In this document: positions 104-51,117 of the stretch, piece after piece
How the letters are laid out: every line of letters begins with the position of its first letter
How positions within the stretch are numbered: the stretch's first letter is position 1
Origin: a virus
Virus record (IMG/VR): IMGVR_UViG_3300045988_073455
Strand: one strand, 5' to 3'
DNA length: 64,000 nucleotides
Position numbers and translations under genes: made by a program
The notes under the pieces: model-generated
What the model was told of the DNA's origin: nothing
Databases searched by the model: none
What the model saw: only the letters and a program-made list of their open reading frames with translations

Positions 104-1159
104 TCAGACTTGCGGTTTATTTGCGGTTTTTTCGTGTTTAACCACATTTTGATTATCATTAGTACTGTCTCCATAAGACTTCTCGAATGAAGCCATACGA
201 AATGATTGAATTATTCTATCACTCATCTTTGATAAATCATCAATAGAGTCAAGTGTGACCCACTCGTTGGTTTTATAATCATTCATAGGAAAACAAACCT
301 TGACTTTATCTGCCGTCCTTTTGATTCTAACAATCCATCTCCATACAGAACCATGCTTGTTGATCGTAAAATACGATTTGAAAGACGTATATTTAATCTC
401 GTCCTCGTAAGCATAATGCTTCAGTATCTTCTTGACTAAAAGATAAGCTTTATAGTCTTCACCATTCACTATAGGTGATGGCTTGTCACCTTTCGGCTGT
501 GGAATAGATATTCTATCATTTATTTGATTACGAACCTCTCTTGCAACCTCATCTACAGAATAACTGCAACCGATTGAGTCAGCTATATATTTCGCAAATG
601 TATCAGAGCATTTGAATACGTCATTCTCTAGAAATGTCCTAACCTTCTCTTCAATATTAATGTTTTCTGCAATTTGCATGATTTTCTGCTCGTCAAAGCA
701 GTTTCTTTGAAACCTACCTAACAATTCTACATCATGTTTATCAAAAGAGCTTATATCGAAAACAAAGAATGGTTTTGAGTCCATCAAGTTCACTCTATCC
801 ATATCTGAATAGAAGCGATATTCTATACCGTTAGTAAGTATTGCGAACCTAGCCTTAGTTGCCACATAATACTTAGCTAGCTGGAGGACAAAAGCATCTA
901 GGCTCTTTTCACACTGCTTGCACTCTACTATCATCGCAGGTTTGGAATCAATATTAATAGCATAGTCCACCTTGTCTCCCTTGCGTGAAATATCGCAATC
1001 CATTTCGGGTATAACCTCTAGTGGATTGTATATATCATAGCCGAGTGAGACAAGAAAAGGAAGAACGAAGGCAGTCTTCGTGGCTTCCTCAGTCGCTACA
1101 TGATTTCTCAGCTTAGAAACCTTGTCAGATAACTCTTCAAGAGTTTTATATAATTCCAT
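104..1159 (-). CDS. HsdR_N-like PD-(D/E)xK nuclease-domain protein with an unassigned C-terminal half
   Basis: 351-aa ORF. The N-terminus (TKTAFVLPFL...DKVDYAI...MIVECK) resembles the type I restriction R-subunit N-terminal nuclease fold. Its start carries the TAGAGCAATGGAA phage start motif. Confidence 0.55.
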   Translation of the reverse strand: MELYKTLEELSDKVSKLRNHVATEEATKTAFVLPFLVSLGYDIYNPLEVIPEMDCDISRKGDKVDYAINIDSKPAMIVECKQCEKSLDAFVLQLAKYYVATKARFAILTNGIEYRFYSDMDRVNLMDSKPFFVFDISSFDKHDVELLGRFQRNCFDEQKIMQIAENINIEEKVRTFLENDVFKCSDTFAKYIADSIGCSYSVDEVAREVRNQINDRISIPQPKGDKPSPIVNGEDYKAYLLVKKILKHYAYEDEIKYTSFKSYFTINKHGSVWRWIVRIKRTADKVKVCFPMNDYKTNEWVTLDSIDDLSKMSDRIIQSFRMASFEKSYGDSTNDNQNVVKHEKTANKPQV

Positions 1160-1217
1160 TGCTCTACACCTTATTATATATATTATACTATGCGTAAAGT
1201 TAAATAATCTGAATATT

Positions 1218-1273: not shown

Positions 1274-1381
1274 TGTCATTCTACAAATAACAATGCAAAG
1301 ATACAAAAAAGATTGGAATTTTGTGTGAATGATGTGTTAAGATGCACTAAGAGCAATAAGTTAAATTTAAAATTCGTCGTT

Positions 1382-1633
1382 ATGGGATGCACTAAGAGCA
1401 ATAAATCTCCAAAAGTTGGAGAAAAAAAGAACGCTTTCGTAGAATTGGTAGATTTGTGGAAGCAAGATGTTAATTGGAAAAGCAATGCAAAAAACAACAG
1501 AAAAATCTGCATTGGCTTCGGTATCTCTCTAACAGCAGTAATGGTATTCTGTCATACTTGGCTGTTCATACCAGCTATTATCGGATTGTTATGCTGTCTA
1601 TCTAGTCTGAAGGATTTAAATGTGGAGGAGTAA
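1382..1633 (+). CDS. small membrane protein (start uncertain)
   Basis: First ATG of ORF 1268..1633 that lies downstream of the promoter. Hydrophobic stretch ICIGFGISLTAVMVFCHTWLFIPAIIGLLCCL. Confidence 0.4.
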   Translation: MGCTKSNKSPKVGEKKNAFVELVDLWKQDVNWKSNAKNNRKICIGFGISLTAVMVFCHTWLFIPAIIGLLCCLSSLKDLNVEE

Positions 1634-1636
1634 GAT

Positions 1637-5548: not shown

Positions 5549-6099
5549 AGTTTTATATGTTTGATGATGAACTTTGGTTCATTAAGGATGGTACCGAAAA
5601 TCAAGCTCTCTCGGAAAAAGATACAGAAGTCATTAAGAAAATGATTGATGCTATCCGAGAAAGATACCCCGAAGCCTACAAGGCTTTATCTAAGGAGTAT
5701 CAAAAGAGTGCAATGAATGTTCCTTATTATCAGTTCTTGATAGTCAGAAGATTCTGTAAATGCAACTTCGGAAAGCTTGATACAACCACATACGATATTG
5801 ATAATCTCGGCAGGCTTAACTTTGAAAAAGTTGAATGCCCACTGAGAGGAGAATGTAAGAACGAAGGCATTATTTGCAGCCCAAAGTTTAACTCCAAGCT
5901 CTCTCCTGCCGAAGAAAGGGTAATGAACCTTATCTATCAAGGTTTCACAAAAGAAGAAGTTGGTGAAAAGCTTTGCCTCTCTCCGAACACAATTAAACAG
6001 CATGTCAGATCTGCTTACTGCAAGTTAGGTGTTCACGATAAGGGCGAGTTTGTAAAGCTAGCTAAAGATAATGGATTTTTTAATAATTTAAAGCACTAA
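5539..6099 (+). CDS. LuxR/GerE-family transcriptional regulator
   Basis: C-terminal LSPAEERVMNLIYQGFTKEEVGEKLCLSPNTIKQHVRSAYCKLGV is a classical GerE HTH. Confidence 0.75.
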   Translation: MAVEFYMFDDELWFIKDGTENQALSEKDTEVIKKMIDAIRERYPEAYKALSKEYQKSAMNVPYYQFLIVRRFCKCNFGKLDTTTYDIDNLGRLNFEKVECPLRGECKNEGIICSPKFNSKLSPAEERVMNLIYQGFTKEEVGEKLCLSPNTIKQHVRSAYCKLGVHDKGEFVKLAKDNGFFNNLKH

Positions 6100-6104
6100 G
6101 AGCA

Positions 6105-7058
6105 ATGAGTATGATTAAAAGAAGCAATGAAATTGCTATTCAGAAAAACGTTAAAATGATGGTTTACGGACAGGCAGGTATGGGTAAGACAACTTTTGCC
6201 CTCTCAGCACCTAAGCCTTTGTTGCTTGATTTCGATAATGGTGTCAAGCGTGTTAATACCGCACATTTGGATGATAATGTCGGTATCGTACAGGTTTCCA
6301 GTTGGCAAGATATTCTCAACTTGCTCAACTATAACAAGAAGGATTTGGAGGAGTTCGATACTATCGTTGTAGATACTATTGGAAAGATGATTGACTTCAT
6401 CATCGCCTACAGATGCAATGGTCGCAACCCTCAGATACAGGATTGGGGCACCATCAATAACGACTTCAAATGGTTCACCTCATCTTTGTCACAGCTTAAC
6501 AAGAACATCGTCTTTGTCGCACATCGTGACACACGCAAGGAAGGTGAAAGTACTGTGTATATCCCTGCACTTCGTGAGAAGAACTACAACAATATCGTTA
6601 CAGATTTGGACTTGCTTGGCTATCTCGAAATGAGAAGTGAGAATGGACAGCAAATCAGAACTATCACTTTTGACCCTACAAGTCGTAACGATGGTAAGAA
6701 CACCTGTCAGCTTCCTGGTTGTATGCAGATTCCGGTTATTCTTGATGCAAACGGACAGCCAACCGCTCCTAATAACTTCATCGCTACTCAGATTCTCTCA
6801 CGTTATCAGTCTATGATAGCTCAGAAAGAAGAAAAGGTCAAGGAGTACAATAAGGCTCTTGAAGAGATTAAGGAGGGTGTTCAGTTGATTACTGACGCAA
6901 GAGGGGCAAACCATTTCATCGAGCATATCAAAGATTATGCAAACTTGGGTAACTCCATCATTCTTCATGCAAGAAGTCTGTTCACAGAGAAGGTAAGTGC
7001 TTTGAAGTTGGTTTACAATAAGGAGACCAAGCAATACGAAGACCCACAAGCAGCATAA
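6105..7058 (+). CDS. Sak4-like AAA ATPase (RecA-fold, recombination)
   Basis: Walker A MVYGQAGMGKTTFAL and Walker B IVVDTIG. Lies in a recombination-module neighbourhood. Confidence 0.7.
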   Translation: MSMIKRSNEIAIQKNVKMMVYGQAGMGKTTFALSAPKPLLLDFDNGVKRVNTAHLDDNVGIVQVSSWQDILNLLNYNKKDLEEFDTIVVDTIGKMIDFIIAYRCNGRNPQIQDWGTINNDFKWFTSSLSQLNKNIVFVAHRDTRKEGESTVYIPALREKNYNNIVTDLDLLGYLEMRSENGQQIRTITFDPTSRNDGKNTCQLPGCMQIPVILDANGQPTAPNNFIATQILSRYQSMIAQKEEKVKEYNKALEEIKEGVQLITDARGANHFIEHIKDYANLGNSIILHARSLFTEKVSALKLVYNKETKQYEDPQAA

Positions 7059-14336: not shown

Positions 14337-14362
14337 TATATAAATCTATAAACAAAAGAGCA

Positions 14363-14683
14363 ATGAAGATGTTACAAGACGTTACAGATTGGTTCAAGGC
14401 TGAAATTCTTGGCGACCAATCATTACAACAGGAAAGAAAGAAACAGAAATCACAGAAAGATTTCGAGAAGCGTATTAATGAAGCAGCTCATCATGTCTGC
14501 CTATCCGATCGTCCTAATGATGATGGGTCTCCATATCCTGTTATCTGCATGGATGGCACCGTTATCTACAAAATCTGCGAGAATCCTCGAATCGAGAAAG
14601 GAGAAATCAGCCTTGAAGATGTAGGGGAAGTTTTGGTAAGACAACGCATTCATTATGCCGAAAACAAGCTGAATTACAGATAG
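14363..14683 (+). CDS. hypothetical protein
   Basis: 106-aa ORF. Start lies within AAAGAGCAATGAAG. Confidence 0.5.
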   Translation: MKMLQDVTDWFKAEILGDQSLQQERKKQKSQKDFEKRINEAAHHVCLSDRPNDDGSPYPVICMDGTVIYKICENPRIEKGEISLEDVGEVLVRQRIHYAENKLNYR

Positions 14684-14738
14684 TTATGCGGTTTAAAAGT
14701 TAAATAAAGTTGCTAAAAAGCGATTAAAGAAAGTAACG

Positions 14739-14770: not shown

Positions 14771-14820
14771 CATCAGTTAATTAAACAACAAATAAGTTTA
14801 ACAATTAAATGATAAGAGCA

Positions 14821-15066
14821 ATGAAAAAGGTAAAGTACGTTATTAAGGCAACAAAGTTCAAAGATAACACATACGAAGATGTTGTTTTTGAAAATCAGCC
14901 ACTCAGTCAAAAACAAGAAACATTCAGTGACGTAAAGCACATCTTAGATTTGGATTTCGAGAATGCTTTAGACGAAGGCAAGAAAGTTCAGTATGACGGA
15001 GTAGAGCTTGATATCTTCAATGAAGATGGTACAATTCTTAAAGAATGGATTCAAGACGTAGCATAA
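14821..15066 (+). CDS. hypothetical protein
   Basis: ATG lies within ATAAGAGCAATGAAAAAG. The upstream ATG at 14809 sits inside the motif itself. Confidence 0.5.
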   Translation: MKKVKYVIKATKFKDNTYEDVVFENQPLSQKQETFSDVKHILDLDFENALDEGKKVQYDGVELDIFNEDGTILKEWIQDVA

Positions 15067-23578: not shown

Positions 23579-23619
23579 CACTATCAAAAATAAATAATAA
23601 CAATTAAAAGATAAGAGCA

Positions 23620-23886
23620 ATGAAACAGACAATAAACGTATCAAACAAAGCTGAGGTTGTAGCAGTAGTTACAAGTGATTTTGATGGAGGTTATAACTAT
23701 TTCGAAGGTGACATTCGTAAGGGTAATCTTAGAGCTCATGTAATTAACTACTTCCAAGGTAACAAGTTGAGAATCCAGATTACCTATTGGGAGGATGGCA
23801 AAAGTGTGGCAGTTGAAACCGCTTCAACATGTTCAACAGCAAAGGGAATTGTTAGTAAGGTTTCTAAATTCTTAGATATTAAGTAA
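23620..23886 (+). CDS. hypothetical protein
   Basis: 88-aa ORF with the ATAAGAGCAATGAAAC start. Confidence 0.55.
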   Translation: MKQTINVSNKAEVVAVVTSDFDGGYNYFEGDIRKGNLRAHVINYFQGNKLRIQITYWEDGKSVAVETASTCSTAKGIVSKVSKFLDIK

Positions 23887-23937
23887 ATAAAAAGGTAACG
23901 GCTGGTCCAACCAACTAGTCACAATAAGAGCAATGAA

Positions 23938-24415: not shown

Positions 24416-24440
24416 TAACTGCATATAAAAAGTAAGAGCA

Positions 24441-25460
24441 ATGAAGACAGACAACGTTTTAGAGCATTTCGCTGAAATGATGATTTCACGAATGCAAAAG
24501 ATGAAGGCAGGAGATTGGAAGATGGGTTGGTTCACCACATCTTATGGTGGTAACCCAGTGAACCTTGGAGGGCGTGAATATAATGGAATGAACTCATTCT
24601 TCCTGTTCCTCTGCATGATGGACGAAGAAAGATTCAAATATCCTATCTTTGCTACCTTCAATCAGATAAAGGCATTAGGAGCTAGTGTGAACAAAGGAGA
24701 GAAAAGCTTCCCTGTTCTGTTTTGGTCCATTCAGTACAAAGACAAGAATGGAAACAAAATAACAGAAGACAGCTACAATGGAATGACTCGATCAGCCCAA
24801 CTAGACTGCAAAGTCCAGCCTTTCTTGAAGAGCTACAACGTGTTCAATCTCAGCCAAACCAACCTCGAAGAGATAGCACCTAAGACGATGCAGAAGTTGA
24901 AGGAGAAGTTCAGTCTCAAAGATAAGGATGAGTTGCCGACAGACACGGCTGGTATGTACGTCAACGAGAAAATTGATGATATGCTTCTTTATCAGAAGTG
25001 GCTCTGCCCTATCCGCTACGACAAGTATTCAAGTGGAGCTTTTTACAGATTTGGGGTAGATGATATTACAACACCACTTAAAAGTCAGTTCAAGAAGGGC
25101 AATACAGAGCAGGAGATATTCGAGGATGGACAGGAGTACTACTCAACCCTTCTACATGAAATGGTTCACTCAACAGGGCATAAGTCTAGATTGAATAGAG
25201 GGTTTGAGAATGAGAAAGGAGAAAAGGACTATGCAAGAGAAGAGTTGGTTGCAGAGCTTGGAGCAGCTCTTATCGGAAACGTCCTAGGCTTTAGCAGTCG
25301 CATTTTAGATAATAACGCTGCTTACCTAGATGGTTGGATCAGCAAGCTTAAAAAGCAACCAAAGTTCATCGTTTCTGTTTTGACAGACGTAAACAAGGCA
25401 GCTAAAATGGTATTAGAAATCGTGAACAAAGAAAAGGCACAATTACTAATGCCTGCATAA
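24441..25460 (+). CDS. ardC: ArdC-like antirestriction protein (N-terminal ssDNA-binding domain plus zincin metallopeptidase)
   Basis: NGMNSFFL and FATFNQIKALGASVNKGEKSFPVLFW match the ArdC-N/DUF1738 pattern. HEMVHSTGH (HExxH) and YAREELVAELGAAL are also present. Confidence 0.85.
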   Translation: MKTDNVLEHFAEMMISRMQKMKAGDWKMGWFTTSYGGNPVNLGGREYNGMNSFFLFLCMMDEERFKYPIFATFNQIKALGASVNKGEKSFPVLFWSIQYKDKNGNKITEDSYNGMTRSAQLDCKVQPFLKSYNVFNLSQTNLEEIAPKTMQKLKEKFSLKDKDELPTDTAGMYVNEKIDDMLLYQKWLCPIRYDKYSSGAFYRFGVDDITTPLKSQFKKGNTEQEIFEDGQEYYSTLLHEMVHSTGHKSRLNRGFENEKGEKDYAREELVAELGAALIGNVLGFSSRILDNNAAYLDGWISKLKKQPKFIVSVLTDVNKAAKMVLEIVNKEKAQLLMPA

Positions 25461-25482
25461 GATATTTTATTGCTCTATCTAA

Positions 25483-30666: not shown

Positions 30667-30705
30667 CACTATCAAAATAAAAATAACAATTAAAAGATAA
30701 GAGCA

Positions 30706-30867
30706 ATGAAATACGAAGAAACGTTTAAACAACAAATGGTAGTAATTGAAGCCATGGTAGAAAAGACCAAAAAGGCGAAGGAAGAGAACTGCGACCTTTA
30801 TGCTCTCATTTACATGAGGGGATGGCTTAAAGGAATTGTAGATGATTTGGATAAGATTATCCCTTAA
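30706..30867 (+). CDS. small hypothetical protein (53 aa, not in the track), paralog of 15110-15274
   Basis: MKYEETFKQQ...MRGWLKGIVDDL aligns with MKYEETFKSE...MKGWLKVVYEEL. The minus-strand track ORF 30658..30912 is rejected in its favour. Confidence 0.5.
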   Translation: MKYEETFKQQMVVIEAMVEKTKKAKEENCDLYALIYMRGWLKGIVDDLDKIIP

Positions 30868-31296: not shown

Positions 31297-31343
31297 GAAG
31301 GAAATGGTAGGGCTAACCACCCTACCTCAATACGATAAGAGCA

Positions 31344-32507
31344 ATGAATACGATAAAGACGTTTATTCCATCAGAGTCAGTTGACGCATTTAAGAAGTTC
31401 GCTGAGAAGACAAAGCGCAATGTAGAAGGTTTCGACTACACCATTAGTAACCCACGAAAAAAGTTATTCCGTCATGCGGTAGTAGAAGATTGTCAAACCA
31501 TCATTGGGAAGTATTGGCATGACATCTGTGACCTCACCATCAATATGCCAGACGAAAGTAATTGGAGATTGCTGGCCACATATAAGAATGGAGCCTTTAC
31601 TCCTGCTGATACAACCAAGGAGTTGGTATTCAAGATTAAGGAGCATGGAGCTGATTACGGCAAATGCGACCTATGTGGTCATTGGTGTAACAACGCATAC
31701 GTAATCGAGAATACGCAAACTGGCGATGAACTGCAAGTAGGTTGCGAGTGCATAAAAAAGTTCGGATTGAAGTACATTGACTTCCTCTCAGACTTTACAC
31801 GCAAACTTTATGAGACCTACGACCACACCATCAGATATGCCACCGATGATGACTATGGAGACCTTATTCCAATTTGGGGTGGTCCTAAGGATAGTAGATA
31901 TACGGATGCCATCTTGAAGAATGACATGATCGCCATGTGCAAGGCTCAGTATGACGAGTGCCCTGTTTACAAGAAAGGCTATTACGCAAATGGTCACTAT
32001 TACCCATCAGAAACAATCGCCAAATTAGAGGAAATAAGAGATTCTAAGAAGTTTACGGTTGACTCCTCATACATAACAAAGGTCTGCGATTTTGCGCTCT
32101 CTAAAGAGCCTAAATCGCAATTCGAGGTTGAAATGCAGAAAGTAGCAAATGACTACTACACATTCTCGGAGCAGTTCGTTTATGCTTTCTTCCTGGTGAA
32201 GAACTACGAGGATAGCTTAAAAGGTGGTATTGATGCCATCAAGAAAGGTATGCAAGTCAAGGTAGTCGGTAAAGTCATTCAACAGCGCACAGAGCAGTCT
32301 TACTACGGAGAAATGGTCACAAACACCATCCTTACTAAAAACGGAATAGTCTGTGAAAGGGTTGGCAAAATACCAACTGCACAAAAAGATGGCGAGAAGA
32401 CCACCGAGTTCTATGCTATCGTCAAGGGTTTGTTCAATGGAAAGGTTTGCCTAGACAGAGCTACTAAGAATCCAAAGAAAGGAATTGAAGTGGCTATGGA
32501 GATTTAG
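31344..32507 (+). CDS. hypothetical protein with a Zn-ribbon-like CxxC...CxC motif
   Basis: 387 aa with CDLCGHWC...GCEC. Start lies within ATAAGAGCAATGAATAC. Confidence 0.65.
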   Translation: MNTIKTFIPSESVDAFKKFAEKTKRNVEGFDYTISNPRKKLFRHAVVEDCQTIIGKYWHDICDLTINMPDESNWRLLATYKNGAFTPADTTKELVFKIKEHGADYGKCDLCGHWCNNAYVIENTQTGDELQVGCECIKKFGLKYIDFLSDFTRKLYETYDHTIRYATDDDYGDLIPIWGGPKDSRYTDAILKNDMIAMCKAQYDECPVYKKGYYANGHYYPSETIAKLEEIRDSKKFTVDSSYITKVCDFALSKEPKSQFEVEMQKVANDYYTFSEQFVYAFFLVKNYEDSLKGGIDAIKKGMQVKVVGKVIQQRTEQSYYGEMVTNTILTKNGIVCERVGKIPTAQKDGEKTTEFYAIVKGLFNGKVCLDRATKNPKKGIEVAMEI

Positions 32508-33289: not shown

Positions 33290-33300
33290 AAGTTAGAGCA

Positions 33301-33849
33301 ATGGAACAGAAGTTATTAGATTTGATTATCCATATAGGACAAGTTAGAGGTTGGGCTGTAGATGCTACAGATAATGGCAATGACTTTGCCTACATCTTCT
33401 TTCAGCGTTATTCTCCTGCTGGTCAAGATTTCAACATGTCAATCGAAATGCCAAACAATGACCCGAATGAGTTTTTGAAGAACCTCGATGATTACTACGA
33501 GAACTTCGATCCAGATAGTGAAGCCCTAAACCGGTGTGACAAAGAAGGTCATGGTATAAATGGAGCACCCAAACGCTTGAAGGATATCATCATTGATTTC
33601 GAGGAAATCGAAAAGGAAATCAAAGAACTCCTAGAAGTGTTCAATCTTCAAATAGAGGAACTAGAGAAAGCTGCCATTCACAAGGTTAAAGTGCAAGTCA
33701 CCGAATACCTGCAAAAGGTAGTGGAGGTTGATGCCATCAATGGCAGTGACGCATGCGATAAAGTCGAAGAAATGGTTAATGGATCAGAAATCATCTTGAC
33801 AGCAGACGATTTCACAACAAGAAACATTGAGCCTTATGAAGATAAGTAA
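33301..33849 (+). CDS. acidic hypothetical protein
   Basis: 182-aa ORF. Start lies within TTAGAGCAATGGAA. Confidence 0.6.
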   Translation: MEQKLLDLIIHIGQVRGWAVDATDNGNDFAYIFFQRYSPAGQDFNMSIEMPNNDPNEFLKNLDDYYENFDPDSEALNRCDKEGHGINGAPKRLKDIIIDFEEIEKEIKELLEVFNLQIEELEKAAIHKVKVQVTEYLQKVVEVDAINGSDACDKVEEMVNGSEIILTADDFTTRNIEPYEDK

Positions 33850-34087: not shown

Positions 34088-34197
34088 GTTAGCAAAAAGT
34101 ACTTTATGCTCAAAACGTTTGGTCATTTGCAAAAAAATGATTACCTTTGCACTATCAAAAATAAATAATAACAATTAAAAGATAAGAGCAATGAAAC
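34056..34197 (+). repeat. 142-bp direct repeat, copy 1 (gene 3' end + promoter + leader + ATGAAAC)
   Basis: Near-identical to 43682-43829, with one substitution and small indels in the A-rich leader. Confidence 0.85.
34118..34149 (+). promoter_or_regulatory. Bacteroidota-type promoter (TTTG-N20-TACCTTTG)
   Basis: TTTG at 34118-34121 and TACCTTTG at 34142-34149. Confidence 0.6.
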
Positions 34198-34469: not shown

Positions 34470-34481
34470 AATATAAGAGCA

Positions 34482-34826
34482 ATGAAACTGATTACGAAAG
34501 AAATTAAGAAGAGACTGGAAAAATATCCTCTCTACTCGCAGGATGGTAAAAAGGAAGAAGCCATCTGTCAAGCAAAGTTCTTCCTTTGTGTTGGTGCATG
34601 GTCTTGGTTCATATTGGAAGCAGACCTAGAGAACAATATCGCCTACGGAATCACTATCAATGGAAGTGGTGAAGGCGAGTACGGCTACACAAGCTTAACC
34701 GAGTTGCAGGGGCTAACAACTAAGTTAGGCTTAACCGTAGAGCGAGACACCTCATTCTCCCCTACTCCACTAAAGGATATTAATAACGAATATCTAAAGA
34801 AGTTTCTTAAGAAAATGTACGCTTGA
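34482..34826 (+). CDS. DUF2958-like protein
   Basis: LYSQDGKKEEAICQAKFF...WSWFILEAD...GEYGYTSLTELQ matches my recollection of DUF2958. Confidence 0.65.
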   Translation: MKLITKEIKKRLEKYPLYSQDGKKEEAICQAKFFLCVGAWSWFILEADLENNIAYGITINGSGEGEYGYTSLTELQGLTTKLGLTVERDTSFSPTPLKDINNEYLKKFLKKMYA

Positions 34827-35304: not shown

Positions 35305-35389
35305 GAATTCCTCCTTTCAAAATACACACAATGGTTGACGGCTCGGAAAGACGAGCATTTTTGCGTGTATAGAATATTGTTATTATAAG

Positions 35390-35462: not shown

Positions 35463-35467
35463 TTTTG

Positions 35468-35541
35468 CGGGTATAGCTCAGTCGGTCAGAGCGTTACATT
35501 CCCAATGTGAAGGTCGAAGGTTCGAGTCCCTCTAGCCGCTC
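35468..35541 (+). tRNA. tRNA-Gly(CCC)
   Basis: Fold: GCGGGTA-TA-GCTC-AGTCGGTCA-GAGC-G-TTACA-TTCCCAA-TGTGA-AGGTC-GAAGG-TTCGAGT-CCCTC-TAGCCGC. There is one acceptor-stem and one T-stem mismatch. Confidence 0.75.
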
Positions 35542-41927: not shown

Positions 41928-43442
41928 ATGTCAGAACAGAAAGCAATAAAAAAAATGATTGCATGGCGCAATGATTGGTGTCTCTTCGCTAAGGAAGTCT
42001 TGAAGGCTCGCCTTGACGAAGAGCAAAAGGCTATATTGCGTTCTGTTCAAAAGAACAAAATGACAACGGTAGCCAGTGGAACTGCAAGGGGTAAGGACTT
42101 CATCGCTGCCGTAGCCGCTTTATGTTTTCTATACCTCACTCCTCGCTTCGGCAAGGATGGTAGTTTAGAAAAGAACACCAAGATTGCCCTTACAGCACCA
42201 ACAGGAAGACAGGTAACAAACATCATGATACCAGAAGTGGCACGTCTTTACAAAAAGGCAGGCTTCCTGCCTGGTCGTTTGCTGTCGGATGGCATCAGAA
42301 CTGATTATGAGGAATGGTATCTGACAGGTTTCAAATCTTCAGCCGACAACACAGAGGCTTGGTCGGGATTCCATGCTGTAAACACCATGTTCATCGTAAC
42401 AGAAGCATCCGGTATCTCGGACACCATCTATAATGCAATCGAGGGTAACCTGCAAGGTAACTCTCGATTGCTATTGGTATTCAACCCAAACGTTACTACA
42501 GGGTATGCAGCCAACTCCATGAAGTCTCCCAGATTCAAGAAGTTTAGATTATCATCTCTCAACGCAGAGAACGTAGTAAGCAAGAAAAACATTATCCCTG
42601 GTCAAGTTGACTATGAATGGGTATCCGATAAGGTCTCAGCATGGGCACAGAAGATCAGAAAGTCTGAGTTTGATGAAGGTCGTGGTGATTTTGTGTGGGA
42701 AGGTGGATATTACACTCCAAATGACCTTTTTCGTGTTAAGGTTCTCGGTATGTTTCCGAAGGTGTCCGAAGATACCCTCATTCCATACGAATGGTGCGAG
42801 ATTGCCCATAGAAGATGGAAGGAACTTAAAGATAGTGGCTTTATCACCCATAAGCCAATACGCTTAGGTGTCGATGTCGCAGGTATGGGTCGCGATAGGT
42901 CTTGCTATGTTCCACGACAAGGAAATTATGTTTCAGAAATCAAGTGTCATAATTCGGGTGGTCATGCGGACCACATGGCAGTCGCAGGTCAAGTCGCACA
43001 CTACCTAAGTTTGAGTTCAAAGAATAAAGCATTCATTGATACCATTGGAGAAGGTGCTGGAGTTTATTCAAGACTCATAGAGCAAAAGTATTTAACTGCA
43101 TTCTCTTGCAAGTTCTCGGAAGGCGTGAGAAACAAGCATGATGTGACAGGCTGCTACTCTTTCGCTAACATGAGGGCTTATCTGTTTTGGTGCATACGTG
43201 ACTGGCTCAACCCAAAGAATGGATTCTTTGCAGCACTCCCACCTGACGATGAGTTGGATCAAGAATTGTGCGAAGTGCATTGGCTGTTTCAGTCAGATGG
43301 TTCAATCATCATGGAACCAAAAGACGAAATCAAGAAGCGTCTGAAACGTTCTCCCGACAAGATGGATGCCCTTGCCAACACCTTCTATCCATACGACTTC
43401 GATAGAGACAATGATTTGCAATTGTTAAATAGTATAGTATAA
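41928..43442 (+). CDS. terL: terminase large subunit
   Basis: 504 aa with the P-loop-like VASGTARGKDF and Walker-B-like MFIVTEASG. Synteny with terS. Confidence 0.75.
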   Translation: MSEQKAIKKMIAWRNDWCLFAKEVLKARLDEEQKAILRSVQKNKMTTVASGTARGKDFIAAVAALCFLYLTPRFGKDGSLEKNTKIALTAPTGRQVTNIMIPEVARLYKKAGFLPGRLLSDGIRTDYEEWYLTGFKSSADNTEAWSGFHAVNTMFIVTEASGISDTIYNAIEGNLQGNSRLLLVFNPNVTTGYAANSMKSPRFKKFRLSSLNAENVVSKKNIIPGQVDYEWVSDKVSAWAQKIRKSEFDEGRGDFVWEGGYYTPNDLFRVKVLGMFPKVSEDTLIPYEWCEIAHRRWKELKDSGFITHKPIRLGVDVAGMGRDRSCYVPRQGNYVSEIKCHNSGGHADHMAVAGQVAHYLSLSSKNKAFIDTIGEGAGVYSRLIEQKYLTAFSCKFSEGVRNKHDVTGCYSFANMRAYLFWCIRDWLNPKNGFFAALPPDDELDQELCEVHWLFQSDGSIIMEPKDEIKKRLKRSPDKMDALANTFYPYDFDRDNDLQLLNSIV

Positions 43443-43480
43443 ATTTGCAAGATACAGAAAAGTTTTGTAACTTTGCAGCC

Positions 43481-43547
43481 GAAACGTTACCTTTAACGTT
43501 TCATTGCTCTTAGTGCACTCCGACCGTGAGGTTAGAGTGCATTTTTT
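43481..43547 (+). ncRNA. candidate small RNA or 3'-UTR element carrying an antisense copy of the phage start motif
   Basis: Possible promoter TTTG (43444) -N20- TAACTTTG (43468-43475). 5' hairpin AAACGTTA/TAACGTTT (43482-43501), exposed CATTGCTCTTAG (43502-43513), and terminator TGCACTC/GAGTGCA (43514-43541) plus T6. Confidence 0.35.
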
Positions 43548-43681
43548 ATTTAATATAAAGTAATTCAGAAAAAGACTATACACTTCAATATAAGCCTTTC
43601 TAAGCGGTTCATTTTTTATCTCCATATAACTTATACCATTTTTAAGAAATAGACTTACATACACAAAATTAATAGTTTGAC

Positions 43682-43829
43682 ATAAGTATCTGAATAACAA
43701 TAAGTTAAACTAAGTTAGCAAAAAGTACTTTATGCTCAAAACATTTGGTCATTTGCAAAAAAATGATTACCTTTGCACTATCAAAAATAAAATAACAATT
43801 TAAAAGATAGGAGATAAGAGCAATGAAAC
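43682..43829 (+). repeat. direct repeat, copy 2 (includes a 32-nt relic of the 3' end of gene 33827-34087)
   Basis: See 34056-34197. Confidence 0.85.
43744..43775 (+). promoter_or_regulatory. Bacteroidota-type promoter (TTTG-N20-TACCTTTG)
   Basis: TTTG at 43744-43747 and TACCTTTG at 43768-43775. Confidence 0.6.
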
Positions 43830-44236
43830 TAATTGGAATGGAAACGTCAGATTATAACGAAACACGTTATATACAATGTGAGACAATGGAAGAATACAAC
43901 GATGTTTTGAAACGTGAAAAGAGTAAACACGGAATTAAAAATGGTGCAGATGTTACCACTTACGTTTACGAAACATCAAATTCTTCAAAAGTTGCAGGAA
44001 AAGTCATTAATACAAACCTTGAAGTTGAAATCTACTATACTGGCGCAAAATTTCGTGAACTCTATGCAAAACCATCTACAAATCCAGAAATAGATAGAGA
44101 AGTAAAAGCTCATGAGGTGTATGGAGGCTGCGGCATAATCACATATAAGGAGAAAGGTATCTCAAAACAATACTATGGTGTTGGGCATAAAACATTCAAC
44201 ACCAAGAAAGAAGCGAAAAAATATATTGATGAGTAA
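43823..44236 (+). CDS. hypothetical protein
   Basis: 137-aa ORF with the motif start. Confidence 0.6.
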   Translation: MKLIGMETSDYNETRYIQCETMEEYNDVLKREKSKHGIKNGADVTTYVYETSNSSKVAGKVINTNLEVEIYYTGAKFRELYAKPSTNPEIDREVKAHEVYGGCGIITYKEKGISKQYYGVGHKTFNTKKEAKKYIDE

Positions 44237-44252
44237 TTAAAAGATAAGAGCA

Positions 44253-44471
44253 ATGAACGTTTACACAGAATCAGATAGATATACGGTATTACTTCACGCA
44301 TTCGACACTTTTGAAGGTGCTTGTGAGTATATAACTCAAATTATAAATGTATGGGAGTGTAAGGTTCTCCCCCTCATAAAAGCATGGAATGACGGTGTGG
44401 TTACAGCTAAATGGATGGCTAAGAAAACCGAAAAAGGAATAAAATTTGAATTGTTGGATAGCAATGTTTAA
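44253..44471 (+). CDS. hypothetical protein
   Basis: 72-aa ORF with the motif start. Confidence 0.55.
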   Translation: MNVYTESDRYTVLLHAFDTFEGACEYITQIINVWECKVLPLIKAWNDGVVTAKWMAKKTEKGIKFELLDSNV

Positions 44472-44486
44472 TAGGAGGAAACGGAT

Positions 44487-44678
44487 ATGACAGTATATGA
44501 ATTATCGGAACTTCAGAAAGAAGAACTCAAAACCGAAATATTGAAAGATAAGTTTGTTGGGTACAAACTTTCATTCAGAGAGTTAGCATGTGCTAATGAT
44601 TGCATCAGCGACCGAGAGTTGTTCGAAAAATTCAAGGACCAGACCTTTACGGATAATGACTTCATCGTATCACGCTAA
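44487..44678 (+). CDS. hypothetical protein
   Basis: 63-aa ORF preceded by AGGAGGAAACGGATATG, a rare SD-like site. Confidence 0.5.
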   Translation: MTVYELSELQKEELKTEILKDKFVGYKLSFRELACANDCISDRELFEKFKDQTFTDNDFIVSR

Positions 44679-44688
44679 ATGGAATCGT

Positions 44689-45009
44689 ATGGAATGCAAT
44701 TGCACAACAATAGAAGAGCTTAAATCCGTAACCACGCAGATTAGTGGTGATGAATGGAAAGATTTCTTCTCACTCATCAAAAAAGGCTCATATAGCCTTT
44801 ATGGTTTCCACCAGTTTCTTGATGAGAGACCAGACCTATGCTTATTAATTCAAGGTATAGGAGATTACCAAACTGCCATTAAAGCTACGTTAGACGAAAT
44901 CGGATTGAATGATGGTGATATAAATGGACCAGGAGGAAATCATCTTAAATTGATTGTGGCGGATCAGATAGGATTCATAGTATATGAAACTAAAGTTATG
45001 AACTTTTAA
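44689..45009 (+). CDS. hypothetical protein
   Basis: Internal ATG (MECNCTT...) of track ORF 44590..45009, located after the upstream stop. Confidence 0.5.
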   Translation: MECNCTTIEELKSVTTQISGDEWKDFFSLIKKGSYSLYGFHQFLDERPDLCLLIQGIGDYQTAIKATLDEIGLNDGDINGPGGNHLKLIVADQIGFIVYETKVMNF

Positions 45010-45024
45010 AAATAAGATAGAGCA

Positions 45025-45201
45025 ATGGAAGAGAACGTTATCATAGCAATGGATGCCGAAAAGTCTAAAAAGATAAAAGGCATTCCTTCAAGTTGGGACT
45101 GGGAAGATATTCATTTCTACCTCATTACTGAATTGGGATTCAATTTTGATGTTGTGTTCAATTATTCAAAAGACATAGAGGAGGTATCTTATGAAGGATA
45201 A
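45025..45201 (+). CDS. small hypothetical protein (58 aa, not in the track)
   Basis: ATAGAGCAATGGAA start. Overlaps the radC-like start by 11 nt. Confidence 0.45.
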   Translation: MEENVIIAMDAEKSKKIKGIPSSWDWEDIHFYLITELGFNFDVVFNYSKDIEEVSYEG

Positions 45202-45871
45202 TGCAAGAACTATCAAGTACGATTCTATCACATCATACGTAAAGGAATATGGGGTAGAATATCTTAGTAACGAGAACCTTATTGCTTCAATTATCGGTAT
45301 AGACCCTATGCTACAGGGTAATGAACCAATAAGAAAAATCTTTGATGGTAGTCATTCCCTCAGAAAGACAAGCAAGAGTACATTGCAGGAGCTTACATCT
45401 ATCAAAGGAATAGGTGAAAAGAAGGCTACCGCTATACTCGCTGCATTCGAACTTGGCAGAAGATTCATGAAAGAGAAGTCGCAAGAACTTACAGATTTGG
45501 GTAGTTCTCTCGACATCTACAACTATATTTTACCATACGTCAAGGATTTAGAAATAGAAGAATCTTATCTGTTCTGTATGGATAGCAACTTCAAGTTAAT
45601 CAAAATGGTTCGATTGTCACAAGGTGGAATATCAGAAACCACTATAGACGTAAGAATTGTGTGTAAAGAAGCTATCTCCTGCAATGCCGTAATAATAGCA
45701 TTGGTTCACAATCATCCAAGCCCTAACTGCTTTCCATCAAAGTCTGACGATGAGATAACATATAAGATACAGAAGGCTTGTGAAATTATGAGATTGTATT
45801 TTATGGACCACGTTATCATCAGTAGCAAGTCCGATCAGTATTACTCTTACCACGACAAAGGGAGACTATAG
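45191..45871 (+). CDS. radC: RadC-like JAB/MPN-domain protein
   Basis: HhH-like SIKGIGEKKATAILAAFELGRR and the JAMM motif LVHNHPSPNCFPSKSD. Confidence 0.85.
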   Translation: MKDNARTIKYDSITSYVKEYGVEYLSNENLIASIIGIDPMLQGNEPIRKIFDGSHSLRKTSKSTLQELTSIKGIGEKKATAILAAFELGRRFMKEKSQELTDLGSSLDIYNYILPYVKDLEIEESYLFCMDSNFKLIKMVRLSQGGISETTIDVRIVCKEAISCNAVIIALVHNHPSPNCFPSKSDDEITYKIQKACEIMRLYFMDHVIISSKSDQYYSYHDKGRL

Positions 45872-45982
45872 GCTACAAGCCGATAAAATACCTCAAACCC
45901 ATAATTACATACCAAAAGAATCTAACTTGAACACAGAAGATATTTTGCACGTTTAAGTGCATTTTTATTGCATCTTATCTTT

Positions 45983-46010
45983 CAAGGGAGGGCTGTGAAG
46001 TTCTCCCTTG
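45983..46010 (+). terminator. hairpin (8-bp perfect stem) after radC
   Basis: CAAGGGAG (45983-45990) pairs with CTCCCTTG (46003-46010). No clear T-run follows. Confidence 0.4.
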
Positions 46011-46054
46011 ATTATTGAAATGAAAATAATTTCTCACTTTTTTTGCAAAAACTA

Positions 46055-46085
46055 TTTGTTGATTAAATAATATTTCGTATATTTG
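46055..46085 (+). promoter_or_regulatory. putative late promoter (TTTG-N19-TATATTTG)
   Basis: The cassette is shared with 34825-34889. It precedes the scaffold and capsid genes. Confidence 0.55.
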
Positions 46086-46159
46086 CACCCATAAAAGCGT
46101 GTGAAGATGCACGTGACAGAACTTTTCGTAACATTGCTCTTACACCGAGTTCTACGTTT

Positions 46160-46193
46160 GGTCTGCCTGCATTTCGCTCGCAGACCATTTTTT
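46160..46193 (+). terminator. intrinsic terminator inside the late-operon leader
   Basis: GGTCTGC (46160-46166) pairs with GCAGACC (46180-46186), followed by ATTTTTT. It lies between the promoter and the scaffold ATG at 46216. Confidence 0.6.
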
Positions 46194-46215
46194 GTTAAAT
46201 ATAACTCAACAAGCA

Positions 46216-51009: not shown

Positions 51010-51117
51010 ACCCAAGTAGCTCAGTTGGTTAGAGCGAGACCAAAGTCCGTCACATGAAATCCAGTTGGTCTTTAAAAAGCTGGTTGAAAGACGCAGGTTC
51101 GAGTCCTGCCTTGGGTG
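51010..51117 (+). tRNA. tRNA-like element, 108 nt: canonical acceptor, D and T arms with an about 51-nt segment where a 17-nt anticodon arm is expected
   Basis: Acceptor ACCCAAG/CTTGGGT, D arm GCTC-AGTTGGTTA-GAGC, T arm GCAGG-TTCGAGT-CCTGC. The central region folds alternatively as AGACCAA/TTGGTCT (21-nt loop) or GTCTTT/AAAGAC (13-nt loop). Confidence 0.45.

What the first reader, a model, noticed from the sequence alone, without database searches (positions are those of the whole stretch)
43481..43547. Antisense copies of the start motif exposed just upstream of terminator hairpins (three sites): sRNA- or 3'-UTR-type regulator?
CATTGCTCTTA, the reverse complement of TAAGAGCAATG, occurs on the + strand at three operon boundaries. 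Each copy lies upstream of a hairpin terminator (16 to 72 nt from motif start to stem start).
- 43502-43513: between a 5' hairpin (43482-43501) and the terminator at 43514-43547. It is preceded by a plausible TTTG-N20-TAACTTTG promoter at 43444-43475.
- 46132-46142: inside the late-operon leader, before the terminator at 46160-46193.
- 25467-25475 (ATTGCTCTA): before the ardC terminator at 25483-25518.

The 43.5 kb copy extends to 15-16 nt of complementarity (GCACTAAGAGCAATGA) with the start region of the Sak4-like gene at 6094-6108. It also has 15 nt of complementarity with the two internal sites at 1343-1357 and 1389-1403.

A hairpin, a single-stranded seed and an intrinsic terminator make up the canonical architecture of a trans-acting sRNA. 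The transcripts could base-pair with the initiation regions of the motif-bearing genes.
Basis: partly seen in the sequence, partly recalled or inferred. Interest (0 to 1): 0.65.

Follow-up and report, generated by a model that had tools for sequence, protein, structure and literature searches.

The report
Phage small RNA targeting gene starts
Right after its terminase gene, this uncultured gut Bacteroidales phage encodes a conserved ~66-nt small RNA whose exposed stretch is the exact complement of the start-codon motif of about 15 of its own early genes, and RNA and targets have changed together across related phages.

Summary
Two of the three reported sites are real and non-random. The third is a chance 9-mer.

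**Site 1 (43481-43547).** This is a stand-alone small RNA gene directly 3' of terL. It has:
- a Bacteroidota -7 box 5 nt upstream;
- a 5' hairpin;
- an 11-nt single-stranded stretch (P unpaired about 1.0);
- a GUGA-looped terminator followed by T6.

The same element follows terL in 27 phage lineages, including a contig in a Prevotella MAG. Sixteen of 20 stem pairs show compensatory changes, while UCAUUGCUCU stays almost invariant. Relatives without the RNA almost entirely lack AGAGCAATG gene starts.

The strongest evidence concerns the bases 3' of the seed. They differ between lineages, and the start region of the cognate Sak4-like gene differs in the matching way, giving 15-19 nt of contiguous complementarity. 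I predicted a complement for one lineage (CACACTTAGAGCAATG). A search found it at the Sak4-like start in four genomes of that lineage.

**Site 2 (46132-46142).** This lies in the apical loop of a strongly conserved leader with a terminator, upstream of the late structural operon. Only CAUUGCUC is conserved there.

No transcript data exist. No Rfam family, paper or cultured relative matches. Best reading: a trans-acting antisense RNA that blocks translation of early genes.

The parts
43444..43475 (+). Promoter of the small RNA: -33 TTTG (43444-43447), N20, -7 box TAACTTTG (43468-43475). It abuts the terL stop codon (43440-43442).
   Evidence: Sequence. A TAnnTTTG-type box lies 4-6 nt upstream of hairpin 1 in 25 of 27 lineages while the surrounding sequence diverges. 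Promoter consensus as given in PMC7366714.
43481..43547 (+). The small RNA (about 66 nt): hairpin 1, single-stranded seed, terminator hairpin, T-run.
   Evidence: MFE -28.1 kcal/mol, z = -7.7. The covariance model scores it 94.6 bits and finds the same element 3' of terL in 30 distinct loci.
43481..43502 (+). Hairpin 1 (GAAACGUU / AACGUUUC).
   Evidence: 5 of 8 pairs show changes on both sides across 30 sequences, and 97.8% of cells are paired.
43499..43513 (+). Seed UUUCAUUGCUCUUAG. 43503-43513 is single-stranded. The family-invariant core UCAUUGCUCU is 43501-43510.
   Evidence: P(unpaired) = 1.0 for 43503-43511. The core is unchanged in 27 of 30 sequences. In L037 and L071 the only changes are C-to-U, which keep G.U pairing; L362 has a U-to-G change at the last core base.
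43514..43547 (+). Intrinsic terminator: 12-bp stem, invariant GUGA loop, T6. Its 5' arm (GUGCA) extends the complementarity to some targets. It also ends the terL operon.
   Evidence: 11 of 12 pairs show changes on both sides. Lineage-specific 5'-arm sequences match the cognate targets.
6093..6109 (+). Best-supported target: start region of the Sak4-like gene (GCACUAAGAGCAAUGAG). The TAA at 6097-6099 is also the stop codon of the LuxR/GerE-type regulator gene 5539-6099.
   Evidence: 15 nt Watson-Crick, 17 with one G.U. Best duplex in the window, -28.7 kcal/mol. The context is conserved down to 70% protein identity and co-varies with the RNA. Annotation.
1343..1357 (+). Upstream copy of the tandem target pair (UGCACUAAGAGCAAU), in the leader of gene 1382-1633.
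   Evidence: 15-nt complementarity. A homologous copy is present in L146.
1388..1402 (+). Second tandem target. It covers codons 3-7 (C-T-K-S-N) of the small membrane-protein gene 1382-1633.
   Evidence: 15 nt. The same 15 nt are kept exactly in L146, where the surrounding region is only about 70% identical. In that lineage the complementarity is 27 nt with 4 G.U.
14355..14365 (+). Start motif of gene 14363-14683 (AAAGAGCAATG).
14813..14823 (+). Start motif, first gene after the promoter at 14763.
23612..23622 (+). Start motif, first gene of the class A operon (promoter 23571).
23925..23935 (+). Start motif. The real start is probably the ATG 5 nt downstream.
24433..24443 (+). Start motif of the ArdC-like gene 24441-25460.
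30698..30708 (+). Start motif, first gene of the class A operon (promoter 30659).
31336..31346 (+). Start motif of gene 31344-32507.
33293..33303 (+). Start motif variant TTAGAGCAATG of gene 33301-33849.
34183..34193 (+). Start motif, first gene of the class A operon (promoter 34142).
   Evidence: 16 nt contiguous
34474..34484 (+). Start motif of gene 34482-34826.
43815..43825 (+). Start motif, first gene of the class A operon just downstream of the small RNA.
44245..44255 (+). Start motif of gene 44253-44471.
45017..45027 (+). Start motif variant ATAGAGCAATG of gene 45025-45201.
1157..1167 (-). True start motif (GTAGAGCAATG) of the minus-strand endonuclease-like gene 104-1159. The motif follows the gene's strand.
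46055..46085 (+). Late (class B) promoter of the structural operon: TTTG, N19, TATATTTG.
   Evidence: The same promoter type drives the portal/head genes (25608) and the terL operon (34880).
46092..46193 (+). Late-operon leader RNA (about 100 nt): hairpin 46097-46114; hairpin 46118-46153 with apical loop CAUUGCUC (46132-46139); terminator 46159-46187 and T-run 46188-46193. The first late gene starts at 46216.
   Evidence: Fold, z = -2.9. Loop P(unpaired) 0.89-0.99. The element is conserved in the L050 group and in the Prevotella-MAG contig L389, whose TerL is 65% identical.
25469..25477 (+). Third reported site (ATTGCTCTA). Judged a chance match and not part of the system.

Best explanation
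43481-43547 encodes a trans-acting antisense small RNA of a phage that infects Bacteroidales.

**Inferred steps, none shown experimentally:**
1. It is transcribed from its own sigma-ABfr-type promoter, which abuts the end of terL. The same sequence also forms the 3' end of the late terL operon transcript.
2. It folds into a 5' hairpin and a terminator hairpin. Between them lies an exposed seed, UUUCAUUGCUCUUAG.
3. The seed pairs across the start codon of phage mRNAs that carry AGAGCAAUG(AAA).
4. The strongest pairing is with the Sak4-like recombinase gene, which heads the replication/recombination operon, and with the small membrane-protein gene 1382. There the pairing runs on into the 5' arm of the terminator, giving 15-17 nt here and up to 19-27 nt in relatives. 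About 13 other early or middle genes pair over 13-17 nt.
5. Covering the AUG should block 30S binding and so repress translation, perhaps with mRNA decay or polarity.

**Why a temporal role is likely.** The motif is found only on early or middle genes. The anti-motif is found only on RNAs tied to late transcription units: the terL 3' end and the structural-operon leader. The most likely role is therefore to shut off early-gene translation late in infection. The late-operon leader (46092-46193) shows the core CAUUGCUC in a hairpin loop ahead of a terminator. Its prematurely terminated form may be a second RNA with the same seed.
For: **Shown by computation**
1. Architecture and stability: MFE -28.1 kcal/mol, z = -7.7, seed P(unpaired) 1.0.
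2. The element follows terL in 27 lineages, including a Prevotella MAG contig, with a -7 box 4-6 nt upstream in 25 of 27.
3. Stem covariation: 95.7% of cells paired, against 36-51% for slid controls. 16 of 20 pairs change on both sides. The covariation score is 0.598 against 0.214 for shuffles, with 0 of 500 shuffles as high. RNAalifold finds the same structure on its own.
4. The seed core is invariant in 27 of 30 sequences. In two of the exceptions (L037, L071) the changes are C-to-U and keep G.U pairing; in the third (L362) the last core base is U-to-G, which does not.
5. The conserved core of the RNA (CAUUGCUCU) is the mirror of the conserved core of the start motif (AGAGCAAUG). The flanks of both vary.
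6. Co-occurrence: 18 of 21 loci with the RNA have AGAGCAATG gene starts. The 9 TerL relatives without the RNA have one gene-strand start between them (L390) and three opposite-strand matches. Where the RNA is degenerate (L066/L067) or its seed mutated (L071), the neighbouring genes carry other leaders, with 1, 1 and 0 motif starts.
7. Covariation in trans with the cognate Sak4-like start: GUGCAC / GCAC (window), GUGUGU / ACACAC (L361 with L296), GUGUUU / AAACAC (L313 with L301). In a swap matrix the cognate pair is the best or tied best in every row by duplex energy, and in five of six rows by Watson-Crick extension (L308's target pairs through a G.U).
8. Prediction test. The L368 lineage has seed ...CUCUAAGUGUG. 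A search for its complement, CACACTTAGAGCAATG, found it at the Sak4-like gene start in four genomes that also carry that RNA, giving 19 nt of perfect complementarity.
9. The target inside gene 1382 is kept exactly, including at synonymous positions, while its neighbourhood is only about 70% identical.
10. Co-folding favours the duplex by 8-20 kcal/mol.

**From the literature**
- Bacteroides mRNAs lack Shine-Dalgarno sequences.
- The B. thetaiotaomicron sRNA GibS represses its targets by pairing across their start codons with an extended seed (PMC7366714).
Against: - There are no expression data of any kind, and no cultured relative exists (best TerL hit in GenBank phages is 31%). The transcript, its ends and its timing are therefore inferred.
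- The promoter looks like an ordinary host-type promoter, which does not by itself predict late expression.
- Part of the extended complementarity lies inside the terminator stem and would need strand invasion.
- The trans-covariation rests on about four independent haplotypes.
- In the L379/L383 lineage, no extended target matching its GCCAG extension was found by an exact 15-mer search.
- Predicted accessibility of the start motifs (mean 0.54) is barely above random positions (0.46 +/- 0.17).
- Repression rather than activation is inferred only from the position of the pairing.
Confidence: 0.75

Rival explanations
1. The pairing mechanism is the same but the purpose differs. The RNA would silence the early genes of a superinfecting or co-infecting relative (superinfection exclusion or inter-phage competition), or act as an immunity RNA in a carrier state. 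It would not time the phage's own programme.
For: - The seed and the start motif are shared across the whole family. One phage's RNA would therefore match its relatives' early genes.
- The promoter is host-type.
- RNA-based exclusion is known for prophage BTP1 (STnc6030) and for the P1 c4 RNA (review PMC12197685).
- The tandem target sites at the head of an early operon (1343 and 1388) recall the P4 and P1 immunity RNAs (my own knowledge).
Against: - Immunity specificities usually diversify under escape pressure (own knowledge), yet here the core is invariant.
- No integrase or repressor module was recognised among the proteins I scanned in the window.
- The lineage-specific match to the phage's own Sak4-like start points to self-regulation.
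Confidence: 0.15
2. The late-leader copy (46132-46142) is not an sRNA seed. The leader would be a cis-acting attenuator or antitermination element for the structural operon. CAUUGCUC would be one conserved block used for its own fold or for binding a protein or RNA polymerase.
For: - The whole leader is almost invariant in sequence across lineages whose TerL is only 65% identical. That is far more than a seed would need, and only one pair shows a compensatory change.
- A terminator sits between the late promoter and the first late gene. This is the layout of lambda PR'-tR' (own knowledge; PMC7547250).
- Beyond CATTGCTC the anti-motif varies: CTTAC, AATTA, CTTAG.
Against: - The exact 11-mer occurs here, against 0.08 expected.
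- The invariant 8-mer sits in a predicted apical loop, P(unpaired) 0.89-0.99.
- In L389 the loop reads UUUUCAUUGCUCUUAG, the full seed of the small RNA.
- The two roles are not exclusive. StxS is both a by-product of attenuation and a regulator (PMC7547250).
Confidence: 0.4
3. The 43.5-kb element is only the terL terminator with a conserved cis element, such as an mRNA-stability or protein-binding site. Its complementarity to gene starts has no function.
For: It does end the terL operon. In L066/L067 a terminator with the same GUGA loop persists without hairpin 1 or the -7 box.
Against: - The own -7 box is conserved at fixed spacing.
- The invariant stretch is exactly the mirror of the start-motif core.
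- Trans-covariation and the confirmed prediction.
- Co-occurrence with the motif.
Confidence: 0.06
4. The motif is a double-stranded DNA site for a phage protein, read in either orientation, or the antisense copies are starts of minus-strand mini-genes.
For: A site in duplex DNA reads the same from either strand. ATG follows the motif on the minus strand at both sites, giving ORFs of 3 and 23 codons.
Against: - The motif is in exact register with start codons and follows the gene's strand, including the minus-strand gene at 1159.
- The antisense copies fall in a single-stranded linker and a loop of covarying RNA structures.
- In the window's near-clade the substitutions are C-to-U and G.U-compatible.
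- The minus-strand ORFs are not conserved at the window's clade: MKR*, MNR*, MNSYK* at site 1, and a frameshift at site 2 in the L050 group.
Confidence: 0.03

Closest known systems
P1/P7 c4 RNA and P4 CI RNA (phage antisense RNAs encoded away from their targets)
   Same: A small structured phage RNA, encoded on the same strand as its targets and elsewhere in the genome. It pairs with short repeated sequences at the head of early operons to block their expression. The tandem target sites at 1343 and 1388 recall a2/b2 of P1 and seqA/seqC of P4. (Own knowledge; c4 is summarised in PMC12197685.)
   Different: No sequence or structure match to any Rfam family, C4 included. Those RNAs are cut out of longer transcripts and serve lysogenic immunity (own knowledge). 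This one has its own promoter and terminator, sits 3' of terL, is in a phage with no recognised lysogeny module among the proteins scanned, and matches about 15 start regions.
GibS and other intergenic sRNAs of Bacteroides thetaiotaomicron
   Same: Host-type promoter, intrinsic terminator, a conserved single-stranded extended seed, pairing across the start codon of SD-less mRNAs, and repression (PMC7366714).
   Different: Those are chromosomal, metabolic regulators with few targets. There is no homology. The only Rfam hint, MasB/BTnc201, scores 23 bits against a cut-off of 105, rests mostly on the terminator, and is not reproduced in relatives.
3'-UTR-derived sRNAs with an internal promoter (for example MicL and DapZ in enterobacteria)
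   Same: The promoter lies at the very end of the upstream coding region; in some lineages the terL stop codon is inside the -7 box. The terminator is shared with the upstream mRNA.
   Different: The element is phage-encoded and targets the phage's own genes. The hosts have no Hfq-type chaperone known to me (own knowledge).
Lambda 6S RNA and StxS (short PR'-tR' transcripts of lambdoid late operons)
   Same: For the 46.1-kb element: late promoter, a leader of about 100 nt, then a terminator upstream of the late genes. The terminated product can itself be a regulatory RNA (PMC7547250).
   Different: No Q-like antiterminator was identified here. The loop is complementary to the phage's own early start regions rather than acting on a host regulator.
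T4 RegA (protein translational repressor of many early mRNAs)
   Same: Functional analogy only: one factor recognises a sequence overlapping the AUG of many early messages and shuts them off (PMC3014915; own knowledge).
   Different: RegA is a protein. Here the proposed repressor is an RNA and recognition is by base pairing.

Membership tests
Trans-encoded base-pairing small RNA (general class) | Independent transcription unit: own promoter and Rho-independent terminator | tested here: met
   A TAnnTTTG box lies 4-6 nt upstream of hairpin 1 in 25 of 27 lineages. A covarying GC-rich hairpin with a T-run follows. This is sequence evidence only.
Trans-encoded base-pairing small RNA (general class) | Conserved, accessible seed | tested here: met
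   UCAUUGCUCU is invariant in 27 of 30 sequences, between stems that vary at 16 of 20 pairs. P(unpaired) is 1.0.
Trans-encoded base-pairing small RNA (general class) | Complementarity to target mRNAs encoded elsewhere, maintained in evolution | tested here: met
   13-17 nt contiguous to 14 sites in the window, and 15-27 nt in relatives. Compensatory changes occur in trans, and a predicted target was found.
Trans-encoded base-pairing small RNA (general class) | A discrete transcript exists and changes target expression | not testable with these tools
   No transcriptome data, and no cultured phage.
Rfam RF04177 BTnc201 / MasB | Score at or above the family gathering threshold (105 bits) | tested here: not met
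   23 bits, with the alignment mostly in the terminator. No hit in 8 divergent homologues. MasB is a chromosomal B. thetaiotaomicron sRNA.
C4 / CI antisense RNA family of P1, P7 and P4, and all other Rfam 15 families | Match to the covariance model | tested here: not met
   No match at gathering thresholds in the window, and none at E up to 10 in 43400-46300.
C4 / CI antisense RNA family of P1, P7 and P4 | Processed from the early or immunity transcript; role in lysogenic immunity | not testable with these tools
   The architecture argues for a primary transcript. No lysogeny genes were recognised among the left-arm and motif-bearing proteins I scanned.
3'-UTR-derived sRNA with internal promoter | Lies in the 3' UTR of an mRNA and shares its terminator | tested here: met
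   It starts 39 nt after the terL stop, with no other terminator between. The position is conserved in all lineages; in L365 it follows one inserted gene.
Late-operon leader/attenuator of the lambda PR'-tR' kind (46.1-kb element) | Late promoter, short leader, intrinsic terminator, then late genes | tested here: met
   Conserved in three lineages.
Late-operon leader/attenuator of the lambda PR'-tR' kind (46.1-kb element) | A dedicated antiterminator that reads through the leader terminator | not tested
   No Q-like protein was searched for. A LuxR/GerE-type regulator (5539-6099) is the only regulator recognised.

The most novel reading that the evidence does not exclude
A whole family of uncultured gut Bacteroidales phages may run an RNA-based temporal switch. 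Early and middle genes would opt in by carrying a shared start-codon 'address', AGAGCAAUGAAA. Two RNAs tied to late transcription carry the anti-address and would together silence about 15 genes at once: the stand-alone RNA at the terL 3' end and the prematurely terminated leader of the structural operon. A bolder variant is that the leader loop senses the abundance of early mRNA by pairing with it, and so couples late-operon read-through to early expression.
Probability: 0.35. Interest if true: 0.85.

Novelty: new variant of a known kind. Interest (0 to 1): 0.75.

Why it matters
- **Few known cases.** Base-pairing RNAs that phages use on their own genes are known from a handful of temperate enterobacterial phages. 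None is described for phages of Bacteroidota, a dominant group of the human gut, in the 2025 review or the library searches I ran.
- **Broad family with an unusual target set.** This RNA family has no Rfam match or paper that I could find. It spans many uncultured phage lineages from Bacteroidales-type hosts. Its seed is aimed at a start-codon motif shared by a whole class of phage genes, so one RNA could set the translation of a regulon defined only by its initiation region.
- **Relevance to SD-less translation.** How translation is controlled in bacteria that do not use Shine-Dalgarno pairing is poorly understood, and this bears on it.
- **Testable and useful.** The seed and targets are known to the nucleotide, with natural compensatory variants to copy. 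If confirmed, it gives a compact marker (terL plus the RNA) for annotating this phage family and a portable repression module for Bacteroides genetics.

Tried and rejected
- **Minus-strand genes at the antisense copies.** Rejected. The ORFs are 3 and 23 codons and are not conserved in the window's clade (MKR*, MNR*, MNSYK*; frameshift in the L050 group).
- **Third site at 25.5 kb.** Rejected as chance.
- **Rfam membership.** None. The weak MasB/BTnc201 resemblance was not reproduced in relatives.
- **Gapped search for seed variants** (GTAACTTTG..CCGTGAGG). This returned almost only chance hits.
- **Close relatives fetched with the window's TerL.** Too similar to be informative. Using the TerL of the divergent L159 as query opened up the family.
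- **Extended target for the L379/L383 lineage.** Not found by exact 15-mer.
- **Late leader in other divergent loci.** Only L389 contained it.
- **Alternative pairing in the leader.** I looked by eye for a structure competing with the terminator. Nothing convincing was found, and this was not computed.
- **Start-motif accessibility.** Not clearly different from background.
- **Annotated phage collection.** No cultured relative and no annotation to borrow.
- **Not used.** The metagenome scan and the large protein searches. The questions left are experimental.
Full report
**What the window is.** It is most of a phage genome of about 68-70 kb with 40% G+C.
- Its promoters have the Bacteroidota form, TTTG-N19/20-TAnnTTTG (consensus as in PMC7366714).
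- Relatives are IMG/VR contigs, many from human-gut samples. They also occur in MAG contigs labelled Bacteroidales, Prevotella and Paludibacter, and in a Geofilum isolate contig.
- No cultured phage is close. The best TerL match in GenBank phages is 31%, and only one unannotated record shares any DNA.
- Three promoter classes can be told apart by sequence.
  - Class A is a promoter-leader repeat of about 75 nt ahead of cassettes of small genes (23571, 30659, 34142, 43768; variant at 14763).
  - Class B drives the portal/head genes (25608), the operon ending in terL (34880) and the structural operon (46078). By gene content it is late.
  - Class C sits at 1263 and 5256. Each copy faces a minus-strand promoter.

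**The observation.**
- TAAGAGCAATG occurs 13 times exactly, against 0.08 expected: 11 on the + strand and 2 on the - strand.
- On the + strand, 15 of 17 GAGCAATG copies are the ATG of an ORF of at least 53 aa. All lie between 6.1 and 45.0 kb, and none lies in a late operon.
- A minus-strand gene (104-1159) starts with GTAGAGCAATG, so the motif follows the gene's strand.
- The third site is ATTGCTCTA at 25469-25477. A 9-mer like this is expected 0.91 times. It is not conserved in the one divergent ArdC relative, although the adjacent hairpin is. I set it aside.

**The 43.5-kb element as an RNA.**
- 43481-43549 folds into two hairpins with 9 unpaired bases between them: MFE -28.1 kcal/mol, shuffles -10.5 +/- 2.3, z = -7.7.
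- The stretch 43503-43511 has P(unpaired) of 1.0.
- The minus-strand reading (ATG AAA CGT TAA) is not conserved in the window's clade.

**Conservation among close relatives.** In relatives with TerL at 92-97% identity, both stems carry compensatory changes. The promoter spacer has diverged, but its -33 and -7 elements are kept. CATTGCTCTTAGTGCA is unchanged.

**A much wider family.** A more divergent contig (L159) has the same element after its terL. Using that TerL as query brought in far more distant phages.
- Nearly all have, directly 3' of terL, a -7 box and a hairpin 1 with quite different stems.
- They share an invariant TTTCATTGCTC(T), then 3-5 variable bases, then a terminator with a GUGA-type loop, very different stems and a T-run.
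- A covariance model built from the close set finds the element in all 30 distinct loci tested. That includes L365, where it follows an inserted gene, and the Prevotella-MAG contig L389.
- It finds nothing in nine other TerL relatives at 63-71% identity.

**Structure statistics.** On the 30-sequence alignment, 95.7% of cells are paired, against 36-51% for slid controls. Sixteen of 20 pairs change on both sides. The covariation score is 0.598 against 0.214 for shuffles, with 0 of 500 shuffles as high. That alignment was fitted to the model. However, RNAalifold predicts the same structure, with 16 of 21 pairs compensatory.

**Seed and promoter conservation.** The seed core UCAUUGCUCU is unchanged in 27 of 30 sequences. 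In L037 and L071 the changes are C-to-U, which keep G.U pairing with the target. L362 has a U-to-G change at the last core base. A TAnnTTTG box lies 4-6 nt upstream of hairpin 1 in 25 of 27 lineages. In some of them the terL stop codon lies inside that box.

**Link to the start motif.**
- In the distant phages, the genes downstream of the element start with (T/A/C/G)AAGAGCAATG(A/G)AA.
- The conserved core of the motif (AGAGCAAUG, often followed by AAA) is therefore the mirror of the conserved core of the RNA (UUUCAUUGCUCU). The variable flanks face each other.
- Eighteen of 21 loci with the RNA have such gene starts. The nine loci without the RNA have one gene-strand start between them and three opposite-strand matches.
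- Where the RNA has lost its promoter and hairpin 1 (L066/L067) or its seed has two changes (L071), the neighbouring genes use other leaders, with 1, 1 and 0 motif starts.
- This co-occurrence is not phylogenetically independent. Still, relatives at the same TerL distance have either both features or almost neither.

**Covariation between the RNA and its targets.**
- Within each genome, contiguous complementarity between the RNA and its cognate sites is 13-17 nt for ordinary start regions. For a few sites it is 15-27 nt.
- The bases 3' of the seed, which form the 5' arm of the terminator, differ between lineages. The upstream flank of the Sak4-like start differs in the matching way:

| Lineage | RNA, 3' of seed | Sak4-like flank | Complementarity |
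|---|---|---|---|
| window | GUGCAC | GCAC | 15 nt |
| L361 with L296 | GUGUGU | ACACAC | 17 nt |
| L313 with L301 | GUGUUU | AAACAC | 17 nt |

- In a swap matrix, the cognate pair is the best or tied best in every row by duplex energy. By Watson-Crick extension this holds in five of six rows; L308's target pairs through a G.U. Mean duplex energy is -32.0 kcal/mol for cognate pairs against -28.2 for non-cognate.
- I then made a prediction. The L368 lineage has seed CAUUGCUCUAAGUGUG, with A where the others have U. Its target should therefore read CACACUUAGAGCAAUG.
- An exact search found that 16-mer in opposite sense to the RNA in four genomes of that lineage. In each it is the start of the 309-aa Sak4-like gene: ctAAACACACTTAGAGCAATGagt, 19 nt perfectly complementary to the cognate RNA.
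- The same test for the L379/L383 lineage found only the RNAs themselves and no extended target.

**Targets in the window.**
- The best duplex is at the Sak4-like start, 6093-6109, at -28.7 kcal/mol. Its TAA is also the stop codon of the upstream LuxR/GerE-type regulator gene.
- Next come two tandem sites at 1343-1357 and 1388-1402, downstream of the class C promoter. The second covers codons 3-7 of a small two-helix membrane protein. The same 15 nt are kept exactly in a relative whose surrounding DNA is only about 70% identical, which points to selection on the nucleotides themselves.
- Co-folding favours RNA-target dimers by 8-20 kcal/mol.
- Predicted accessibility of the start motifs is not clearly above background.

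**The late leader.** 46092-46193 holds a 5' hairpin, a second hairpin whose apical loop is CAUUGCUC, and a terminator. It lies between the late promoter and the first structural gene.
- It is nearly invariant in the L050 group and in L389, whose TerL is only 65% identical to the window's.
- It has one compensatory pair (AGAACU/AGUUCU against AGAACC/GGUUCU). In L389 the loop reads UUUUCAUUGCUCUUAG.
- Such strong sequence conservation suggests more than a seed. It is probably an attenuator or antitermination element that may also release a seed-bearing short RNA, as StxS does in lambdoid phages (PMC7547250). I could not separate these roles.

**Mechanism: what is shown and what is inferred.**
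- Shown by computation: the conserved structure, promoter box, seed, complementarity, co-occurrence and trans-covariation.
- Inferred: that the RNA is made, that it pairs in vivo, that pairing across the AUG represses translation, and that the purpose is late shut-off of early genes.
- The repression inference rests on the precedent of GibS in B. thetaiotaomicron (PMC7366714) and on general knowledge of small RNAs.
- The timing inference rests on one pattern. The motif is confined to early and middle genes, and the anti-motif to the 3' end and the leader of late transcription units.
- A role in excluding related phages uses the same mechanism and is not excluded.

**Comparison with what is known.**
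- It works like the trans-acting antisense RNAs of P1/P7 (c4) and P4 (CI), and like Bacteroides sRNAs such as GibS. Its position is that of a 3'-UTR-derived sRNA with an internal promoter.
- It matches no Rfam family. The weak MasB/BTnc201 resemblance is 23 bits against a 105-bit cut-off and is not reproduced in relatives.
- The 2025 review of phage sRNAs and four library searches returned no sRNA of a Bacteroidota phage.
- I rate it a new variant of a known kind. The new aspects are the host group, the fixed terL-3' position across a large uncultured family, a seed aimed at a start-codon motif shared by a whole gene class, and a second copy in the late-operon leader.

Noticed in passing
window 1263-1303 and 5256-5296: Two copies of a face-to-face promoter pair. 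The + strand box TATCTTTG (1263-1270 / 5256-5263) sits about 40 nt from a - strand TAnnTTTG box (1303-1296 / 5296-5289). The two transcripts would overlap by about a dozen bases, which looks like a genetic switch.
   Followed up: no
window 23541-23622, 30629-30708, 34112-34193, 43738-43825 (variant at 14733-14823): A promoter-plus-leader repeat of about 75 nt heads each cassette of small early genes and ends in the start motif. It resembles the repeated early promoter modules that mark recombination boundaries in other phages.
   Followed up: partly
window 51010-51117: A tRNA-like element (Rfam tRNA, 47 bits) with a 52-nt insertion in place of the anticodon arm. ARAGORN misses it and reports only two tRNA-Gly genes at 35389-35541. 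It could be an intron-bearing tRNA or a tRNA-like structure.
   Followed up: partly
window 1329-1636: Gene 1382-1633 encodes an 83-aa protein with two hydrophobic helices. Its codons 3-7 and a copy 45 nt upstream are the tandem targets of the small RNA. Each copy also contains a mini-ORF, ATG-CAC-TAA. A small membrane protein under antisense control recalls type I toxin-antitoxin pairs.
   Followed up: partly
window 5539-6107: A LuxR/GerE-type (sigma region 4-like) regulator gene ends at the TAA inside the Sak4-like start motif, 5 nt before the ATG. RNA pairing would therefore cover both its stop codon and the next start. It is a candidate regulator of the class A or class B promoters.
   Followed up: no
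window 43548 onward; loci L001 and L006 after position 7620: Among near-identical relatives, two unrelated sequences follow the T-run of the small RNA. A mosaic breakpoint therefore lies exactly at the end of the RNA gene.
   Followed up: no
window 27589-30207: The 872-aa head-morphogenesis protein also matches a PHROG annotated as Bxa ADP-ribosyltransferase over residues 205-357.
   Followed up: no
IMG/VR contigs 3300045988_141804 (L050 and L066) and 3300045988_113792 (L038 and L071): Each contig carries two different terL genes (93% and 78%; 99% and 85% to the window). They look like chimeric or concatenated assemblies of two related phages, so whole-contig statements about them are unsafe.
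   Followed up: no
L289 2202-2275 (same as L105 2144-2217): In the L054 lineage, two further sites 58 nt apart match the cognate small RNA over 22 and 18 nt. Their ATGs open ORFs of only 2 and 4 codons. They may be a decoy or leader element rather than gene starts.
   Followed up: partly
window 36624-39420: The late operon that ends in terL also holds an amidoligase-family protein (692 aa) and a ParB-like nuclease-domain protein.
   Followed up: no
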